Counted from the stretch's first letter, positions 29,670-40,314 are shown. The stretch: 64,000 bases of DNA from Clostridia bacterium (GCA_017517325.1 JAFWZW010000018.1:8061-72060); one strand, 5' to 3'. Notes: generated by a model not told the origin, from the sequence alone. Made by a program: numbers and translations.

Positions 29670-30995
29670 TTATTTTGCTCTTGGAACGAGCTTTGCCAAT
29701 TCGTTGGCGATGGTGAAGGTGCTGACGCCGCTGCCGCGGGAATCCTCCACGATGATATAGAAGGCAGTCTTTGCTTCTTCGATCACCCCCACCAAAAGGC
29801 TGTTTTCCGCGGTCTCACCAACCTCGGAGGTGCCCGTTTTGGCATAGGTAACGGTTTCATCCAAACCAAGATTGTAATAGGTATAATCGTATTCGCGGGT
29901 ACCGGAATACCAATTCTTTTTCACCGTGGAAGCGGTGGAAGAGGAAAGGAGCTTTTCGGCATCCCCTTCTGCCTCGTAGGTGACCTTATTCTTGTTGGGG
30001 TTGGTGACGGATTCGACAAGATAGGGTCTGGCAACCTTTCCTCCGTTTGCCACGGCGCCGGCGATCATTGCCATTGAAACGGGGCTGACCTGACTTTGCC
30101 CCTGACCGATCAGAGCCCAAACGTCGTCAAAACGCTTGGTATTGGCAAAAACGGTGGAGGAGTTGGGGCGGGTCAAGCCATCCATTTCGTTTTTTTCGTG
30201 TTCGGTTTCATTCACCTCAAAGCCAAGCTCTTCCAGCGTTTCAATGGCTTTTTCCACGTCAAACTGGGTAATGAGATAAGCAAAGAAACCGTTGCAGCTT
30301 TTTCCCAGAGCTTCATCAAAGACCAGCTTTCCGTGAGACCCGGGGCAATTGATCTTGGAGCCATCCGGAAGCTGAAAAGAGCCGTTGCAGGTGTAGGACA
30401 GATCCTTCAATTTGATTTTTTGATCCGCCGCTACGATAGTAGCAACCAGCTTCATGGTAGAGCCGGGAGTATAGAGGGAATCCACACAGCGGTTGATAAA
30501 GGCCGCGTTTTCGTAATCAGGGGCGTAATGAGGAAGGGTGATCATCGTATAGATCTCGCCGGTTTCGTAGTTATAGGCAAAGCAACAGCCCTTCCGATCC
30601 CCAAACTGGGAGATCAAATGCAGCTGATCCTCCTGAGAGAGAAGGGTTGTTTTCATTTGGCGCGGCTCCCCTTCCACGGTGCGATAGCCGGTAAGAGAAT
30701 TGACGGAGCCGGGAACCAGCTTGGCGGCGTGGCGATACAAGACCGTATTGTGCATTAAATTGCCGTGGCCGATGGTGTTGCCATAGGCCTTGAAATCGCT
30801 TACCTGCCCGTTGTAGATGATCTGACCCGTTCGGTCGGTAATGACGCCGTGGATATCAGCAAAGCGGAATACGTCGTCATAGGTCAAATCATCCGTAGCA
30901 CCGCCGATGCGAAAAAGCGCGATGACCATAGAGATGGCCAAAACCCAGGAGAGGATGCTGAATACGACACCCATCCTCTTTTCTTTTCTTCTCAC
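29670..30995 (-). CDS. class-B penicillin-binding transpeptidase (small PbpA-like bPBP)
   Basis: N-terminal TM helix. Motifs STMK (SxxK), SCN (SxN) and KTGTS (KTG). GTG start overlaps the SEDS stop (GTGA). Confidence 0.85.
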   Translation of the reverse strand: MRRKEKRMGVVFSILSWVLAISMVIALFRIGGATDDLTYDDVFRFADIHGVITDRTGQIIYNGQVSDFKAYGNTIGHGNLMHNTVLYRHAAKLVPGSVNSLTGYRTVEGEPRQMKTTLLSQEDQLHLISQFGDRKGCCFAYNYETGEIYTMITLPHYAPDYENAAFINRCVDSLYTPGSTMKLVATIVAADQKIKLKDLSYTCNGSFQLPDGSKINCPGSHGKLVFDEALGKSCNGFFAYLITQFDVEKAIETLEELGFEVNETEHEKNEMDGLTRPNSSTVFANTKRFDDVWALIGQGQSQVSPVSMAMIAGAVANGGKVARPYLVESVTNPNKNKVTYEAEGDAEKLLSSSTASTVKKNWYSGTREYDYTYYNLGLDETVTYAKTGTSEVGETAENSLLVGVIEEAKTAFYIIVEDSRGSGVSTFTIANELAKLVPRAK

Positions 30996-32335
30996 TTTTT
31001 CTCCACCTCCTTAAACTTCACGGAAGGATTTAGGGAAGCAAAAACCATTCCCATCAGAATACCGAAGGTCAAAAGCGAGGTGCCGCCCTTGGAAAGGAAC
31101 GGAGCAACGATGCCCGTAAAGGGAAGCACGTCCAGAGAACCGAGAAAGTTTAAAAGCACGTGGGCGCAAAGCACCACGGAAACCTGCGTCGTCACAAAGT
31201 AGCACCAAGGGAAAATGGCGTAATTCTTACGGGGAATCAGAACCAAAATGCAATAAGAAAGCATCACCGAAAGGAGCATCCCGACCCCAAAGACAGAATA
31301 AATGCCCGCTATGACCATATCGTTTTCGATGGCGTAAATATTAATAATATGGGAGGAATTTTCAATACCGAGCCCACCAAGCCCGCCAAAAATACAAGCC
31401 TTGAGCATTTGCGCCTGCTGGCCGTTCTCCTCCATCGCTTTTCCTACGTTTTCAACACGTTCGTGGGCGTAGGGAACGAAGGTAACGGCGGCAAAGAAGA
31501 CCATTACCGTGATCAGAAGCAGGATCACGAAAAGTTTTTCATTATCAAGGAGAAGCACCGTCATTCCCAAAACCAAAGCAAAGATAATGGCTGCTGAGCC
31601 AAGATCGCGCAGGAGGAACAGGGCTGCAAAGGAAATGGCACCCATCACAAAAGTCAAAGTAACGCGCCACTTTTTGCCGTAGGAAAAGGCGCACATGGCA
31701 ATAAGAAACACCTTTAGTAGTTCTCCGGGCTGAAAGGAAAAAGAGCCGATGCGGATCCAAAGGCGGGCCCCGTTGACCGTTGAGCCGAAGATGAGGTTGA
31801 CGAGGATCAGAAGTGCAATGCAGACTGCCAAGGCAATGAACACGCCGTCCTTCACGTCTTTTACGTTGCGCATCACAAAATAGACGGCAATCATCGCCGC
31901 CATTGCCAATCCGAGGAACAAAACGTCGGAAAGAGAGATGGCCACCACAGCACGGAAGGACATACCGATGGCAAGCAAAATCGAGAGTGCCACCACGACC
32001 GCTGAAAATTTAGCGCGGGTCTTCTGCTGATACACAAGGGCAAGGATCAAAAAAAGGAGGATCATTCCCATTGATACCATATACAACACAGCGCGGTTTT
32101 TCAGCATCGAAATGCGACCCGTGTATTCTTCGATCTTCGTTTCAATGCTTTTGCTTTCATCCGCCGAAGCAGAGGAAAGCTTTTCTTCCAGAGCGGCAAC
32201 CCGCTCTTCACAATCCGCAATACGGATCTCGGTAACGGGGGCAAGCTCCTCAATGGTAAATGCAGTCAGACCCATCGCAAAAAGTATTGCAAGGATCATC
32301 AAGATAAAGCCGCGACCTCCGGTTGTTTTAAGCAT
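30992..32335 (-). CDS. SEDS-family peptidoglycan polymerase (FtsW/RodA/SpoVE) with an N-terminal coiled-coil insert
   Basis: SEDS blocks: GARLWIRIGSFSFQPGELLKV, LRDLGSA, FGGLGGLGIENS, ENDMVIAGIYSVFG and PFTGIVAPFLSKGGTS. A ~50-aa charged helix (EERVAALEEKLSS...) sits between TM1 and TM2. Confidence 0.85.
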   Translation of the reverse strand: MLKTTGGRGFILMILAILFAMGLTAFTIEELAPVTEIRIADCEERVAALEEKLSSASADESKSIETKIEEYTGRISMLKNRAVLYMVSMGMILLFLILALVYQQKTRAKFSAVVVALSILLAIGMSFRAVVAISLSDVLFLGLAMAAMIAVYFVMRNVKDVKDGVFIALAVCIALLILVNLIFGSTVNGARLWIRIGSFSFQPGELLKVFLIAMCAFSYGKKWRVTLTFVMGAISFAALFLLRDLGSAAIIFALVLGMTVLLLDNEKLFVILLLITVMVFFAAVTFVPYAHERVENVGKAMEENGQQAQMLKACIFGGLGGLGIENSSHIINIYAIENDMVIAGIYSVFGVGMLLSVMLSYCILVLIPRKNYAIFPWCYFVTTQVSVVLCAHVLLNFLGSLDVLPFTGIVAPFLSKGGTSLLTFGILMGMVFASLNPSVKFKEVEKK

Positions 32336-39195: not shown

Positions 39196-39201
39196 CGCTC
39201 T

Positions 39202-40314
39202 TTACTCGTCTTCTTCAACGGTTGATTCGGTATCCTCTTCTTCGATCAGTGTTGCCTTCTGAAACTTATCCGTTACAGCGGAAAAGAAGTCGGAAACACC
39301 ATCCATTCCCTTTTTGAGAAACGGAATGACCTTTTCCGCTTTTTTTGCAAGATCTTCCTTTTCTTTCCCATCATCCTCCAGAGTATCTCCGCCCGGGATC
39401 CGATCTCTTTTTTTCTCGTTGCCGGTGGGAATGCGATCGCGGGAGATCCCGGTGCCCGTTCCGTGAGAATCAAAGGAGAAGGATCTGCCTTTTTGATTCT
39501 CGTATTCGTAATTATCATCCATATCGATCTTCAGATCACGGATCAAAGCTTCCAGCCCCGGTCTGCGATATTTCAAGGGAGAAAGGCAACGTTCGATGCA
39601 CATTTCCTGAGACTCAAAGGCCTTGTCGGTGCCGCCGGGATACTTGGCATAAAAATAAAAATATGCCGCCATATAAAGATCGGTAGAAACGTCTGCCCCG
39701 GGAGTAAAAAGCTCGCCGGGCATACCTGCATACCCAGGCTTAACGGGAACCGGCAGAGGCAAAAGCATTACGCTGATCTTCTCGCTTTCATTTTGGGGAA
39801 CAGAGACGTAGATGCAATCCTTGCACAAAAATCCAAGAGGTCTGTAGCCGCTTTCGTGGATGGCACTGCGGTTATACTGAAACAAAATTTTCACAAGGCT
39901 TTTAAATACCCCCGATGCGTGATCCTGCTGCTGATTTTCAGACAGCTTGGAAAACTGCACCCACTTCCTATCCTTGGGGAAAGAAAAGCTGTATACGGCG
40001 TATTCATCCACCATACAAAAGCCTTTGAGAGCGGCAAAGGCACCACTGTTCTCCTCATCAAGCAAGGCGAAAGTATTTTTGATCTTTTCCAGATGCACTT
40101 CGTTTTCCGGCGTTACGGCAACGTTGATCCGTTCTCTGGGAACGCCACCGATCACCGGCTTCGTTTGAAAGACCCTACAGCCCATCAGGTTTTGTTCTCC
40201 GTCAGCCTCGATCTGAGGTCTGGTAAATTCGCACGGAGTTATACCGCCGAATGCACCGGCGGAAGCTGCAGCTCCGTTTCCGCTTTTTTCCTTCTGAGTA
40301 AAATCAAATCTCAT
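39202..40314 (-). CDS. kinase-like (probable pseudokinase) protein with an acidic tail
   Basis: Kinase C-lobe-like spacing (PLGFLCKDCIYV where HRDLKxxN would be; GMPGELF; STDLYMAAYFYFY) but no HRD, DFG or Gly-loop. AGAGGTG RBS. First gene of the operon. Confidence 0.4.
   Translation of the reverse strand: MRFDFTQKEKSGNGAAASAGAFGGITPCEFTRPQIEADGEQNLMGCRVFQTKPVIGGVPRERINVAVTPENEVHLEKIKNTFALLDEENSGAFAALKGFCMVDEYAVYSFSFPKDRKWVQFSKLSENQQQDHASGVFKSLVKILFQYNRSAIHESGYRPLGFLCKDCIYVSVPQNESEKISVMLLPLPVPVKPGYAGMPGELFTPGADVSTDLYMAAYFYFYAKYPGGTDKAFESQEMCIERCLSPLKYRRPGLEALIRDLKIDMDDNYEYENQKGRSFSFDSHGTGTGISRDRIPTGNEKKRDRIPGGDTLEDDGKEKEDLAKKAEKVIPFLKKGMDGVSDFFSAVTDKFQKATLIEEEDTESTVEEDE

What the first reader, a model, noticed from the sequence alone, without database searches (positions are those of the whole stretch)
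29670..40314. Nine-gene single-strand operon joining Hanks-type phospho-signalling and a zinc-ribbon GTPase to a private SEDS-bPBP peptidoglycan synthase
All nine ORFs are on the minus strand, with junctions from -8 to +30 bp. These include a GTGA overlap at 30992-30995, an 8-bp overlap at 32328-32335, a 7-bp overlap at 35633-35639, and an RBS overlapping the upstream stop at about 32878-32885 (the RBS at 34432-34437 abuts the next stop). Upstream is a 240-bp promoter region (40315-40554), and a strong hairpin terminator follows the last stop directly. It therefore reads as one transcription unit. A membrane FHA protein, a RodA/FtsW-like polymerase, a small class-B PBP, a PP2C and a Hanks kinase form the parts list of the actinobacterial fhaA-fhaB-pstP-rodA-pbpA-pknA-pknB cluster. 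Here that list sits in a Firmicute-type genome, in a different order, with four extra proteins that have no counterpart there: a kinase-like protein lacking catalytic motifs, a 4-TM protein, a ZnR/P-loop GTPase, and a 514-aa tail-anchored protein. I know of no described system with this composition. It could be a checkpoint-controlled envelope-remodelling module, or a conflict system whose output is cell-wall synthesis.
Basis: partly seen in the sequence, partly recalled or inferred. Interest (0 to 1): 0.85.

Follow-up and report, generated by a model that had tools for sequence, protein, structure and literature searches.

The report
GTPase- and phospho-gated private cell-wall synthase operon
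A gut or rumen Clostridia genome carries a tightly packed nine-gene operon, conserved in many related genomes, that joins a kinase/phosphatase/FHA signalling set and a GTPase with a eukaryote-like (DENN-fold) partner to its own peptidoglycan polymerase and cross-linker; nobody seems to have described this combination.

Summary
Nine minus-strand genes (29670-40314) have junctions of -8 to +30 bp. There is one strong promoter (40393-40366) and one strong terminator (29633-29667).

The same gene order recurs in at least 13 other complete loci from Oscillospirales/Clostridia MAGs, at only 20-46% protein identity. It is a real, selected unit.

Parts:
- g1: unknown, with motifs like a kinase C-lobe.
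- g2: PP2C phosphatase, missing in about half of the loci.
- g3: active Hanks-type kinase plus a Rossmann-like C-terminal domain.
- g4: membrane protein.
- g5: zinc-ribbon TRAFAC GTPase closest to Pfam DO-GTPase2.
- g6: three-domain DENN-like protein (AlphaFold pLDDT 86; best Foldseek hits C9orf72, DENND1B, FLCN/FNIP and T6SS TagF) with a polar linker and a TM hairpin. It gives weak GAP1-M profile hits.
- g7: membrane-anchored divergent FHA protein.
- g8: SEDS polymerase.
- g9: class-B PBP with all three catalytic motifs invariant.

The two "orphan" proteins g5 and g6 therefore have a counterpart: the computationally predicted DO-GTPase/GAP1 systems of Kaur et al. 2020. Those systems were never reported with FHA-SEDS-bPBP.

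Best reading: a membrane switch that licenses dedicated peptidoglycan synthesis. Neighbours are of defence type (Hhe/PDC-S37-like helicase-nuclease, ZorAB-like pair, TIR). This is a new variant of known kinds, and its biological role is unproven.

The parts
40366..40393 (-). Promoter of the operon: TTGACT, 16-nt spacer, extended -10 TGgTATAAT
   Evidence: (11 of 12 matches, with TG) and the sequence. It lies in the 240-bp divergent intergenic region 40315-40554.
39202..40314 (-). g1: 370-aa cytosolic protein of unknown fold. It has conserved motifs that resemble a catalytically dead kinase C-lobe (Y-R-P-L..IC, LLPLP, D..D.YMAAY, RRPSL) and a polar, acidic tail.
   Evidence: No Pfam, NCBIfam or PADLOC hit. 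Orthologues occupy the first position in all loci. Alignments A5 and A12. PDB profile hits cover only kinase subdomain XI, at E 0.24-1.7. hhalign against g3 gives probability 1%.
38395..39195 (-). g2: PP2C-type Ser/Thr phosphatase (266 aa, no TM segment)
   Evidence: NCBIfam Stp1/IreP PP2C at 1.7e-20 and weak Pfam PP2C/SpoIIE hits. The metal-binding Asp residues D45, D133, D213 and D253 are invariant in 7 orthologues. Present in the window and in L006, L009, L012, L013, L015, L017 and L020. Absent from L001-L005, L007, L008, L010 and L011.
36584..38368 (-). g3: soluble Hanks-type Ser/Thr kinase (about residues 1-365) fused to a C-terminal alpha/beta (Rossmann-like) domain of about 190 aa (379-564)
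   Evidence: Pfam Pkinase at 2.5e-13. Invariant are the putative catalytic Lys K65 (my assignment), H179-R-D181, N186, D203-F (DFG replaced by DFP) and the NTAPE234 motif, in 17 sequences. AlphaFold pLDDT 79.7. Foldseek best hits are eukaryote-type kinases, at 5e-10. The C-terminal domain gave no significant hit.
35633..36553 (-). g4: membrane protein (3-4 hydrophobic segments at 29-116), basic linker, and a conserved cytosolic domain of about 130 aa ending in ITWIG
   Evidence: No hit in Pfam, NCBIfam, PADLOC or PDB profile searches. Always sits between the kinase and the GTPase.
34437..35639 (-). g5: zinc-ribbon TRAFAC GTPase. Features: C9-x2-C12 ... C102-P-x-C105; P-loop G129..GK135S; Walker B D205-F-A-G-E209; N279-x-x-D282.
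   Evidence: Alignment A1 of 23 family members. 9 of 23 match Pfam DO-GTPase2; the best is 25.9 bits, E 9.4e-6, over profile positions 2-206 of 226, against a gathering score of 27. The PDB profile hits only GTPases. The word-indexed search of 5.8 billion proteins found only 23 relatives.
32883..34427 (-). g6: GAP1-like, DENN-fold partner of the GTPase. Domains: longin-like (2-118), alpha/beta five-strand (138-244) and helical (251-346), then a disordered polar linker (about 360-435) and a C-terminal two-helix TM hairpin (441-513).
   Evidence: AlphaFold with an 86-sequence MSA gives pLDDT 86.3, with most 10-residue blocks of 1-350 at 90 or above. Foldseek PDB hits: C9orf72 4.2e-5, DENND1B-Rab35 GEF 1.7e-4, FLCN/FNIP2 2.2e-4, TagF 5.2e-4 (prob 1.0) and DENND10. 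Pfam GAP1-M hits the window protein at E 0.073 (residues 163-225) and 6 of 86 family representatives, best 6.5e-6. The family has 95 representatives at 50% clustering.
32328..32870 (-). g7: N-terminal TM anchor (1-25) plus a divergent cytosolic FHA domain with a long inserted loop
   Evidence: No Pfam hit for the window protein. Positional orthologues in L017, L019 and L020 carry Pfam FHA, and those in L015 and L016 carry it weakly. BLAST of window g7 against L013 g7 gives 2.9e-7 and against L017 g7 gives 1e-3. The best-scoring PDB hits of the 14-sequence profile are FHA-containing chains by my own identification: the 6hc0/6hc1/6hbz chains, labelled 'GGDEF domain protein' (E 0.002-0.013), then Slr1951, OdhI and Mb1858 at E 0.6-1.8. 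The GR motif and the GD..G.T.F motif are conserved.
30992..32335 (-). g8: SEDS-family peptidoglycan polymerase (FtsW/RodA/SpoVE family) with an N-terminal extension of about 110 aa (extra TM segment plus a coiled-coil-like segment)
   Evidence: Pfam FTSW_RODA_SPOVE at 8.2e-32 over profile positions 23-348 of 356. NCBIfam ftsW scores 118.8 bits against a cut-off of 337.5. Invariant residues include P203-x-E205-x-x-K208, several Asp residues and P405-F-T-G408.
29670..30995 (-). g9: small class-B penicillin-binding protein (TM anchor, short pedestal, transpeptidase domain)
   Evidence: Pfam Transpeptidase at 2.6e-31. NCBIfam pbp2_mrdA scores 120 bits against a cut-off of 455. S179-T-M-K182, S233-C-N235 and K386-T-G388 are invariant in 13 orthologues.
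29633..29667 (-). Intrinsic terminator: perfect 16-bp stem, 3-nt loop and a T-run. It is palindromic, so it could terminate in both directions.
40555..46452 (+). Conserved divergent neighbour, possibly linked in function: a 1965-aa protein with DUF4011, an SF1 helicase and an MTES_1575 restriction-endonuclease-like domain
   Evidence: Pfam. PADLOC PDC-S37 at 1164 bits and Hhe at 2.6e-170. Found next to the operon in L001, L003, L004, L006, L007 and L009 at 56-65% identity. A 1956-aa protein with the same Pfam domains sits next to the operon in L011 (identity not computed). In L006 it has moved to 18 bp downstream of g9 on the same strand.

Best explanation
The locus is one operon. It encodes a membrane-associated signalling machine whose output is a dedicated peptidoglycan synthase.

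Shown:
- The nine genes form a conserved unit.
- g8 and g9 are an intact SEDS polymerase and class-B transpeptidase pair, distinct from the housekeeping FtsW, RodA and SpoVE sets.
- g3 has the catalytic residues of an active Hanks kinase, and g2 those of a PP2C.
- g7 is a membrane-anchored FHA protein.
- g5 is a zinc-ribbon TRAFAC GTPase with the Walker-B glutamate typical of DO-GTPases.
- g6, encoded directly downstream, has a longin + DENN-core + helical fold. That is the fold of eukaryotic GTPase regulators and of T6SS TagF. It is tethered to the membrane by a C-terminal hairpin.

Inferred:
1. g5 and g6 form a GTPase/regulator switch at the membrane, with g4 as an additional membrane partner.
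2. On an unknown cue, the kinase phosphorylates threonines in the long disordered polar segments of the complex. Candidates are the g6 linker, the g4 linker and the g1 tail.
3. The FHA protein g7 reads that mark and recruits or activates the adjacent SEDS-bPBP pair, so that peptidoglycan is made at a defined place or time.
4. PP2C, in the operon or encoded elsewhere, resets the system. GTP hydrolysis times or terminates it.

In kind, it is a Clostridial variant of the GAP1-N2-type DO-GTPase systems. It is fused to an FHA-SEDS-bPBP module like the one in the actinobacterial division/elongation cluster.
For: Operon anatomy and signals.

Conserved order at 20-46% identity in at least 13 complete loci.

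Catalytic motifs invariant in the kinase, the PP2C, SEDS and bPBP and the GTPase.

GTPase family: DO-GTPase2 is the only specific GTPase family hit, in 9 of 23 members.

g6:
- The AlphaFold model is confident.
- Its best structural matches are all DENN/longin GTPase regulators or TagF.
- GAP1-M is the only Pfam family that recurs in its globular part.

FHA: established through distant orthologues and a PDB profile search.

Literature:
- Kaur et al. 2020 describe zinc-ribbon DO-GTPases with a downstream three-domain GAP1. [quoted passage not shown] One theme has an active kinase, PP2C and vWA.
- In the T6SS threonine phosphorylation pathway, TagF represses secretion by binding the FHA protein Fha directly (title and abstract of PMC5995506). 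That pathway combines a kinase, a PP2C, an FHA protein and TagF (component list from my own knowledge).
Against: - No step of the signalling chain has been tested. No phospho-acceptor has been identified.
- Most members of the window's clade lack the canonical pThr-binding Ser and His in g7, so phospho-dependence of binding is uncertain.
- PP2C is absent from about half of the loci.
- DO-GTPase2 hits stay just below Pfam's gathering score (25.9 against 27 bits). GAP1-N2 and GAP1-C models do not hit.
- The FNIII-repeat component that defines GAP1-N2 systems is missing, and the gene content is constant rather than variable.
- Foldseek TM-scores for g6 are low (0.13-0.34), because the domains are oriented differently and the TM tail is included. 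The DENN assignment is therefore at fold level only.
- Three parts remain unassigned: g1, g4 and the g3 C-terminal domain.
Confidence: 0.55

Rival explanations
1. It is a defence (conflict) system in the sense of Kaur et al. The GTPase/GAP1-like switch and the kinase sense phage attack or envelope damage. The response is triggered peptidoglycan synthesis, either walling off or thickening the envelope or sealing off an infected cell in a chain. It may act together with the neighbouring helicase-nuclease or ZorAB-like proteins.
For: - g5 and g6 resemble DO-GTPase/GAP1, which were predicted to be conflict systems.
- The immediate neighbours are of defence type in different clades:
  - an Hhe/PDC-S37-like helicase-nuclease in 8 loci, kept adjacent even after rearrangement in L006;
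  - ZorA-like and ZorB1-like pairs in L017, L018 and L020;
  - TIR proteins in the window and in L010.
- The family is rare and patchy: 23 GTPase relatives by indexed search and 95 g6 clusters among 1.84 billion representatives.
Against: - Gene content is nearly invariant, with no swapping of effectors and no toxin, nuclease or pore domain inside the operon. That is unlike the diversifying systems of Kaur et al.
- None of the nine proteins hits a PADLOC model, apart from generic kinase similarity.
- No copy was found on phages or plasmids.
- Neighbourhood alone does not show function, and PDC-S37 is itself only a candidate.
Confidence: 0.25
2. It is a housekeeping or developmental morphogenesis module: the Clostridial functional equivalent of the actinobacterial fhaA-fhaB-pstP-rodA-pbpA-pknA-pknB cluster. 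The GTPase and its DENN/longin-like partner would act as a polarity or localisation switch, as MglA/MglB do. They would place a third SEDS-bPBP pair for a special wall-building task such as sporulation, branching, chaining or stress repair.
For: - It has the same five-part list as the actinobacterial cluster.
- All enzymes are catalytically intact and under purifying selection across deep divergence.
- Its composition is constant, as expected of a cellular machine.
- It is chromosomal only.
- Longin/roadblock partners of small GTPases are established polarity regulators in bacteria (PMC3521125).
- One locus lies next to spoIIID.
Against: - The kinase is soluble and lacks PASTA or any extracellular sensor.
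- Gene order and the accessory genes differ completely from the actinobacterial cluster.
- Flanking genes are not conserved housekeeping genes and vary between genomes.
- The distribution seems sparse within Clostridia.
- Two related loci, L012 and L021, keep the signalling and GTPase genes but lack FHA-SEDS-bPBP. The signalling core is therefore not tied to wall synthesis in every case.
Confidence: 0.2

Closest known systems
GAP1-N2-type DO-GTPase (GTPase-centric) systems, Kaur, Burroughs, Iyer and Aravind, eLife 2020 (PMC7159879); predicted by computation only
   Same: - A zinc-ribbon TRAFAC GTPase with a Walker-B glutamate.
- A three-domain partner gene directly downstream, with a polar C-terminal extension and TM segments.
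- Several membrane components.
- One described theme adds an active Ser/Thr kinase and a PP2C.
- Weak profile links to DO-GTPase2 and GAP1-M.
   Different: - No FNIII-repeat protein, and only one GTPase.
- No hit to GAP1-N2 or GAP1-C.
- No detectable vWA.
- The kinase theme was reported as restricted to Actinobacteria, whereas these loci are Clostridia.
- Gene content is constant, not variable.
- The FHA-SEDS-bPBP triad is not mentioned in that paper's main text (0 occurrences of FtsW or penicillin).
Actinobacterial fhaA-fhaB-pstP-rodA-pbpA-pknA-pknB cluster (my own knowledge of Mycobacterium and Corynebacterium; compare PMC2784874)
   Same: FHA protein, PP2C, SEDS polymerase, small class-B PBP and Hanks kinase encoded together. 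This implies control of a SEDS-bPBP pair by phospho-threonine.
   Different: - Different gene order and phylum.
- One soluble kinase without PASTA repeats, instead of the two membrane kinases PknA and PknB.
- The PP2C has no membrane anchor and is optional.
- One FHA protein instead of two.
- Four additional genes: g1, g4, the GTPase and the DENN-like protein.
Type VI secretion threonine-phosphorylation pathway (PpkA kinase, PppA PP2C, Fha, TagF); PMC5995506 for the TagF-Fha interaction
   Same: - A Hanks kinase, a PP2C, an FHA adaptor and a TagF-fold protein together control an envelope-spanning machine after translation.
- g6 matches TagF structures (9t0n at E 5.2e-4, prob 1.0; 6iz8 and 2qnu more weakly).
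   Different: - The output is a peptidoglycan synthase, not a T6SS.
- There are no T6SS genes.
- g6 is much larger (three domains plus a TM hairpin) and is paired with a GTPase, which TagF is not.
- There is no sequence similarity.
Eukaryotic DENN-module GTPase regulators (DENND1B, C9orf72-SMCR8, FLCN-FNIP)
   Same: - A collinear longin + alpha/beta DENN core + helical d-DENN arrangement, aligned over about 330-460 columns.
- Encoded next to, and presumably acting on, a P-loop GTPase.
   Different: - 8-13% sequence identity and low TM-scores.
- The partner GTPase is not of the Rab, Arf or Rag type.
- The protein is bacterial and membrane-anchored.
- Whether it acts as a GEF or a GAP is unknown.
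MglA/MglB and other prokaryotic small GTPase plus roadblock/longin pairs
   Same: A GTPase encoded next to a regulator of the longin/roadblock class. Such pairs are used for spatial control in bacteria (PMC3521125).
   Different: - MglB is a single roadblock domain and MglA is a small Ras-like GTPase.
- Here the regulator has three domains and is membrane-bound.
- Here the GTPase has a zinc ribbon and a C-terminal extension.

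Membership tests
DO-GTPase/GAP1 (GAP1-N2 type) system | TRAFAC GTPase with a conserved glutamate in the Walker B motif | tested here: met
   D205-F-A-G208-E209 is invariant in 23 family members, along with the P-loop GK135 and N279..D282.
DO-GTPase/GAP1 (GAP1-N2 type) system | N-terminal zinc ribbon(s) on the GTPase (usually two in GAP1-N2 systems) | tested here: met
   C9, C12, C102 and C105 are invariant. This looks like one four-Cys site split by a beta-rich insert of about 90 aa, not two separate ribbons.
DO-GTPase/GAP1 (GAP1-N2 type) system | GTPase matches the DO-GTPase2 profile (PF19993) at Pfam's gathering score | tested here: inconclusive
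   9 of 23 members hit at E <= 1. The best is P0009, at 25.9 bits against a cut-off of 27, covering profile positions 2-206 of 226. The window protein itself gives no hit.
DO-GTPase/GAP1 (GAP1-N2 type) system | GAP1 protein (N, M and C domains) encoded directly downstream of the GTPase | tested here: inconclusive
   The position and the three-domain build are met. GAP1-M (PF20014) hits 6 of 86 family representatives (best 6.5e-6) and the window protein at E 0.073 on the middle domain. No GAP1-N2 or GAP1-C hit was seen.
DO-GTPase/GAP1 (GAP1-N2 type) system | FNIII-repeat component | tested here: not met
   No FNIII hit appears in any of the nine proteins or among the called genes of the related loci.
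DO-GTPase/GAP1 (GAP1-N2 type) system | Highly variable effector components between related genomes | tested here: not met
   Gene content and order are the same in all complete loci, apart from the presence or absence of PP2C. Only L012 and L021 lack the FHA-SEDS-bPBP triad.
Actinobacterial fha-pstP-rodA-pbpA-pknAB cluster | FHA, PP2C, SEDS, bPBP and Hanks kinase encoded in one cluster | tested here: met
Actinobacterial fha-pstP-rodA-pbpA-pknAB cluster | Membrane receptor kinase with extracellular PASTA repeats (PknB) | tested here: not met
   g3 has no PASTA hit. The NCBIfam PknB_PASTA_kin model scores 17.8 bits against a cut-off of 450. No credible TM segment was found.
Actinobacterial fha-pstP-rodA-pbpA-pknAB cluster | Canonical gene order and an actinobacterial host | tested here: not met
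   The order here is g1-PP2C-kinase-TM-GTPase-DENN-like-FHA-SEDS-bPBP. All hosts are Clostridia MAGs.
T6SS threonine phosphorylation pathway | PpkA-type kinase, PppA PP2C, Fha and TagF acting on a T6SS | tested here: not met
   The regulatory parts have analogues, including a TagF-fold hit. No T6SS protein family was hit in the operon or its flanks.
DENN module | Collinear longin, DENN core (five-strand alpha/beta) and d-DENN (helical) domains | tested here: met
   The AlphaFold secondary-structure order fits, and full-length Foldseek alignments to DENND1B, C9orf72, FNIP/FLCN and DENND10 have prob 0.87-0.99. This is at fold level only. The Pfam DENND11 hit falls in a low-complexity linker and was discarded.
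DENN module | Nucleotide-exchange (GEF) or GAP activity on the partner GTPase | not testable with these tools
   Needs biochemistry or at least a model of the complex.
TerY-P triad (vWA + PP2C + Ser/Thr kinase) | A vWA domain with a MIDAS motif | tested here: inconclusive
   The g3 C-terminal domain is beta-alpha-beta, with D385-T386-[TS] after the first strand. There was no Pfam or PDB profile hit. hhalign against a genuine VWA protein gave probability 0.8%.

The most novel reading that the evidence does not exclude
The GAP1-like protein is a genuine prokaryotic DENN-module regulator of its neighbouring DO-type GTPase. By extension, the GAP1 proteins of DO-GTPase systems in general would be bacterial DENN homologues. 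The tripartite DENN module, regarded as a eukaryotic invention (PMC3521125), would then have bacterial roots. In this operon the GTPase/DENN switch, together with pThr/FHA signalling, would trigger a dedicated SEDS-bPBP to build wall as an anti-phage or damage response. That would be a defence system whose effector is peptidoglycan synthesis.
Probability: 0.2. Interest if true: 0.9.

Novelty: new variant of a known kind. Interest (0 to 1): 0.7.

Why it matters
How SEDS-bPBP synthases are switched on outside the elongasome and the divisome is an open question. This operon offers a self-contained, genetically compact case. In it, a kinase, a phosphatase, an FHA reader and a GTPase switch are hard-wired to one synthase pair.

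It also gives the computationally predicted DO-GTPase/GAP1 class a concrete enzymatic output that can be assayed.

It further suggests that the GAP1-type partner has the DENN fold used by eukaryotic Rab, Arf and Rag regulators and by T6SS TagF. That bears on the origin of eukaryotic GTPase regulation.

If the link to defence-type neighbours is functional, it would be an unusual immune strategy: building wall rather than killing the cell.

Tried and rejected
1. Pfam, NCBIfam and PADLOC scans of the nine proteins left g1, g4, g5, g6 and g7 without hits.
2. Pfam DENND11 hits on g6 orthologues looked like support for the DENN fold. They map to the polar linker (L004 residues 328-440) and are low-complexity artefacts, so they were rejected.
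3. g1 as a pseudokinase:
   - hhalign of g1 against the g3 family gave probability 1.1%.
   - hhalign against a canonical kinase gave 0.2%.
   - PDB profile searches hit only subdomain XI of PIM2, BIK1 and PBL2, at E 0.24-1.7.
   - The question is left open.
4. The g3 C-terminal domain as vWA: PDB profile search and hhalign against a real VWA were both negative. The full-length Foldseek search was dominated by the kinase domain.
5. PDB profile searches for g4 and for the g6 N-terminal region found nothing meaningful.
6. The word-indexed homologue search with the g6 alignment found only 3 proteins. The exhaustive representative search was needed.
As a result g1, g4 and g7 could not be modelled.
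8. The held supplement of Kaur et al. contains no FtsW, Transpeptidase, PBP or GAP1-N2 term.
9. tblastn of the GTPase against plasmids and phages found no match.
10. Literature searches for the composite, for TagF+DENN and for SEDS+FHA+GTPase found no description.

Full report
**1. Observation**

Nine ORFs lie head to tail on the minus strand between 29670 and 40314. The junctions are:

| Junction | Spacing |
|---|---|
| g9/g8 | 4-bp overlap (30992-30995) |
| g8/g7 | 8-bp overlap (32328-32335) |
| g7/g6 | 12-bp gap |
| g6/g5 | 9-bp gap |
| g5/g4 | 7-bp overlap (35633-35639) |
| g4/g3 | 30-bp gap |
| g3/g2 | 26-bp gap |
| g2/g1 | 6-bp gap |

- An AAGGAGG site overlaps the g6 stop codon, and an AAGGAG site follows the g5 stop codon.
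- The 240-bp upstream region carries TTGACT-16-TGgTATAAT at 40393-40366. It also carries a divergent plus-strand promoter.
- A perfect 16-bp hairpin with a T-run at 29667-29633 begins two bases after the last stop codon.
- Internal promoter-like matches are no more frequent than in shuffled sequence (16 against 12.6 +/- 3.5).
- Terminator-like matches on both strands across the scanned 28000-41500 region are somewhat more frequent than expected (31 against 19.0 +/- 4.6). Apart from the final hairpin and a 9-pair stem at 28211-28231, outside the operon, they have stems of 5-9 pairs.

**2. Is the unit real?**

The GTPase g5 has only 23 relatives in the word-indexed search of 5.8 billion proteins. 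The window's own copy is annotated as a hypothetical protein from a Clostridia MAG.

- Scanning one genome per species with the GTPase alignment gave nine loci, from Acutalibacteraceae, Oscillospiraceae and other Clostridia MAGs.
- In every one the order is g1-(g2)-g3-g4-g5-g6-g7-g8-g9, with overlapping or near-touching junctions.
- Identity to the window proteins over the best BLAST segment: g9 42-45%, g8 38-42%, g5 34-40%, g3 32-40%, g2 36-38%, g1 28-35%, g6 22-36%, g7 23-32% and g4 21-34%.
- Further contigs were reached through more distant GTPase or g6 relatives: L010, L011, L013/14, L015/16, L017/18, L019 and L020. They show the same layout. BLAST confirms that each position is orthologous, with no cross-hits.
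- Two loci, L012 and L021, keep the g1-to-g6 part or its visible remainder but have no FHA-SEDS-bPBP.
- The PP2C gene is present in 8 informative loci and absent from 9.

**3. What the parts are**

*g9* is a class-B PBP (Pfam Transpeptidase 2.6e-31). SxxK, SxN and KTG are invariant in 13 orthologues.

*g8* is a SEDS protein (FTSW_RODA_SPOVE 8.2e-32, almost the full profile length). Its PxExxK and PFTG motifs are invariant, and it carries an N-terminal extension of about 110 aa.

Both g8 and g9 score far below the NCBIfam equivalog cut-offs for FtsW, RodA, SpoVE, MrdA and SpoVD. They are a distinct, "private" pair.

*g2* is a PP2C (Stp1/IreP model 1.7e-20) with its metal-binding aspartates retained.

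*g3* is a Hanks-type kinase.
- The putative catalytic Lys, HRD, Asn, the Asp of a DFP variant of DFG, and the APE motif are invariant in 17 sequences.
- Its AlphaFold model (pLDDT 79.7) matches eukaryote-type kinases at about 5e-10.
- It has no credible TM segment and no PASTA repeats.
- Residues 379-564 form a beta-alpha-beta domain with D-T-[TS] after the first strand. That is compatible with a vWA-like fold, but I could not show it.

*g7* gave no Pfam hit of its own.
- Its positional orthologues in L017, L019 and L020 carry Pfam FHA, and those in L015 and L016 carry it weakly.
- They are BLAST-detectable from the window protein.
- The alignment shows GR, a degenerate SRxHA and the GD..G.T.F motif, with a long loop inserted in the window's clade.
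- The best-scoring PDB hits of the 14-sequence profile are FHA-containing chains by my own identification. These are the 6hc0/6hc1/6hbz chains, labelled "GGDEF domain protein" (E 0.002-0.013), then Slr1951, OdhI and Mb1858 at E 0.6-1.8.
- The basic stretch after its single N-terminal TM segment places the FHA domain in the cytoplasm (inference from the positive-inside rule).

*g5* has a four-Cys zinc ribbon, a P-loop, D-F-A-G-E and N-x-x-D, all invariant. The only specific Pfam family it touches is DO-GTPase2, in 9 of 23 members. The best hit is 25.9 bits over nearly the whole profile, just under the gathering score of 27.

*g6* was the key unknown.
- An exhaustive HMM search with its globular part found 95 cluster representatives.
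- With these as the alignment, AlphaFold gave a confident model (pLDDT 86.3, with most 10-residue blocks of 1-350 at 90 or above).
- The model shows a beta-beta-alpha-beta-beta-beta-alpha-alpha longin-like domain, a five-strand alpha/beta domain and a helical domain. These are followed by a disordered polar linker and a two-helix TM hairpin.
- The best Foldseek matches in the PDB are C9orf72 (4.2e-5), the DENND1B GEF domain bound to Rab35 (1.7e-4), FLCN/FNIP2 (2.2e-4), T6SS TagF (5.2e-4, prob 1.0) and DENND10. Then come longin domains, including an Asgard roadblock-longin protein.
- The alignments span about 330-460 columns, so the three domains are collinear with the DENN module.
- TM-scores are low (0.13-0.34). 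I attribute this to different domain orientation and to the TM tail, which is an inference.
- At sequence level, the only Pfam family that recurs in the globular part is GAP1-M. It hits 6 of 86 representatives (best 6.5e-6) and the window protein at E 0.073, exactly on the middle domain.

*g1* and *g4* remain unassigned.
- g1 has motifs that read like a dead kinase C-lobe. Statistical support is lacking.
- g4 has 2-4 TM segments and a conserved cytosolic domain ending in ITWIG. It has no hits.

**4. Relation to what is known**

*DO-GTPase/GAP1 systems.* Kaur et al. 2020 (PMC7159879) defined "GTPase-centric" systems by computation.
- They consist of a TRAFAC "DO-GTPase" with a Walker-B glutamate and N-terminal zinc ribbons. 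A three-domain GAP1 is encoded just downstream.
- One theme, said to be restricted to Actinobacteria, adds an active kinase, a PP2C and a vWA protein.
- The g5-g6 pair fits this description well in its anatomy and weakly in its profiles.
- The locus lacks the FNIII-repeat protein and the variable effectors that define those systems. The paper's main text never mentions FtsW or penicillin-binding proteins, and it does not mention DENN, longin or TagF.

*Actinobacterial cluster.* The five classical parts (FHA, PP2C, SEDS, bPBP and Hanks kinase) match the actinobacterial fha-pstP-rodA-pbpA-pknAB list. The kinase type, the gene order and the host do not.

*T6SS pathway.* A third useful comparison is the T6SS threonine-phosphorylation pathway. 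There a Hanks kinase, a PP2C, an FHA protein and TagF control an envelope machine, and TagF acts by binding the FHA protein (PMC5995506).

*Literature.* No paper in the library describes the composite, or TagF as DENN-like.

**5. Mechanism**

The enzymatic identities and the invariant architecture are shown. The rest is inferred.

- g5 and g6, with g4, form a membrane-bound GTPase switch.
- The kinase marks threonines in the long disordered polar segments. In the PP2C-less clade the g1 tail carries a conserved F-S-T-E-x-G-D motif, which is a candidate site.
- The FHA protein reads the mark and engages the SEDS-bPBP pair encoded next to it.
- PP2C and GTP hydrolysis reset the system.
- I put 0.55 on this general mechanism.

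**6. Biological role**

The role is open.

- For a conflict role:
  - the link to DO-GTPase systems;
  - an Hhe/PDC-S37-like DUF4011 helicase-nuclease beside the operon in 8 loci, kept adjacent even when relocated in L006;
  - a ZorA/ZorB-like pair in another clade;
  - TIR proteins.
- Against a conflict role:
  - constant gene content;
  - no toxin-type effector;
  - no PADLOC hits for the operon proteins beyond generic kinase similarity;
  - absence from phages and plasmids.
- A developmental or stress-repair role is equally compatible with the evidence.

**7. Verdict**

This is a real, conserved operon that has not been described as such. It is best classed as a new variant that joins two known kinds: a DO-GTPase/GAP1-like switch and an FHA/PP2C/kinase-controlled SEDS-bPBP module.

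The most interesting single result is the DENN-like fold of the GTPase partner. If it extends to GAP1 proteins in general, it would give the DENN module bacterial relatives.

The main weaknesses:
- profile matches are sub-threshold;
- the DENN assignment is at fold level only;
- three parts are unassigned;
- there are no functional data.

Noticed in passing
window 40555-46452 (+): A 1965-aa protein with DUF4011, an SF1 helicase (AAA_11/AAA_12) and an MTES_1575 nuclease domain. PADLOC gives PDC-S37 at 1164 bits and Hhe at 2.6e-170. It is transcribed divergently from the operon across 240 bp. The same protein (56-65% identity, higher than the operon proteins) flanks the operon in L001, L003, L004, L007 and L009. 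A 1956-aa protein with the same Pfam domains flanks it in L011. In L006 it sits 18 bp downstream of g9 on the same strand.
   Followed up: partly
window 25777-27291 (-) and 28312-29514 (-): A 504-aa protein with a TIR_2 domain (2.4e-5), and a 400-aa ORF with no hits that has its own promoter-like site (29583-29554) just past the operon terminator. L010 has a ThsB-like TIR protein (PADLOC PDC-S66 at 2e-16, ThsB at 8.5e-11) directly upstream of its g1.
   Followed up: partly
L017 763-3122 and 14214-20656; L020 540-2932 and 15091-21516: In a distant clade the orthologous operon is flanked on one side by a divergent ZorA-like (6e-17) and ZorB1-like (2.8e-70) pair. On the other side is a convergent cluster of kinase, PP2C, unknown, PP2C, VWA and unknown genes. 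No ZorC, ZorD or ZorE was seen.
   Followed up: partly
L012 400-9502; L021 3-3556: Relatives of the g1-PP2C-kinase-g4-GTPase-g6 core occur without the FHA-SEDS-bPBP triad. The next genes are on the opposite strand and have no hits. L012 and L020 also have an extra gene of 316-319 aa in front of g1.
   Followed up: no
g1 C-terminal tail (alignment A12; for example L001 about 7270-7300; window about 39205-39330): A short F-S-T-E-x-G-D motif is conserved in an otherwise low-complexity tail. It is seen mainly in the loci that lack the PP2C gene. It could be a phospho-acceptor site or an FHA ligand.
   Followed up: no
window 46478-47221 (-) and 47283-48266 (-): An N-acetylmuramoyl-L-alanine amidase (Amidase_2, 1.8e-27) and an AraC-family regulator lie just beyond the helicase-nuclease gene. 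The amidase has no counterpart near the operon in loci L001-L009, the only loci compared.
   Followed up: no
L004 11272-12840 (g6 orthologue, residues 328-440): Pfam hits to DENND11, CDC45, Sec62 and similar families fall in the lysine/glutamate-rich linker. They are low-complexity artefacts and should not be read as sequence evidence for a DENN domain.
   Followed up: yes
window 29633-29667: The operon terminator is a perfect palindrome, and the scan also called it as a terminator on the plus strand. It could therefore act in both directions.
   Followed up: no
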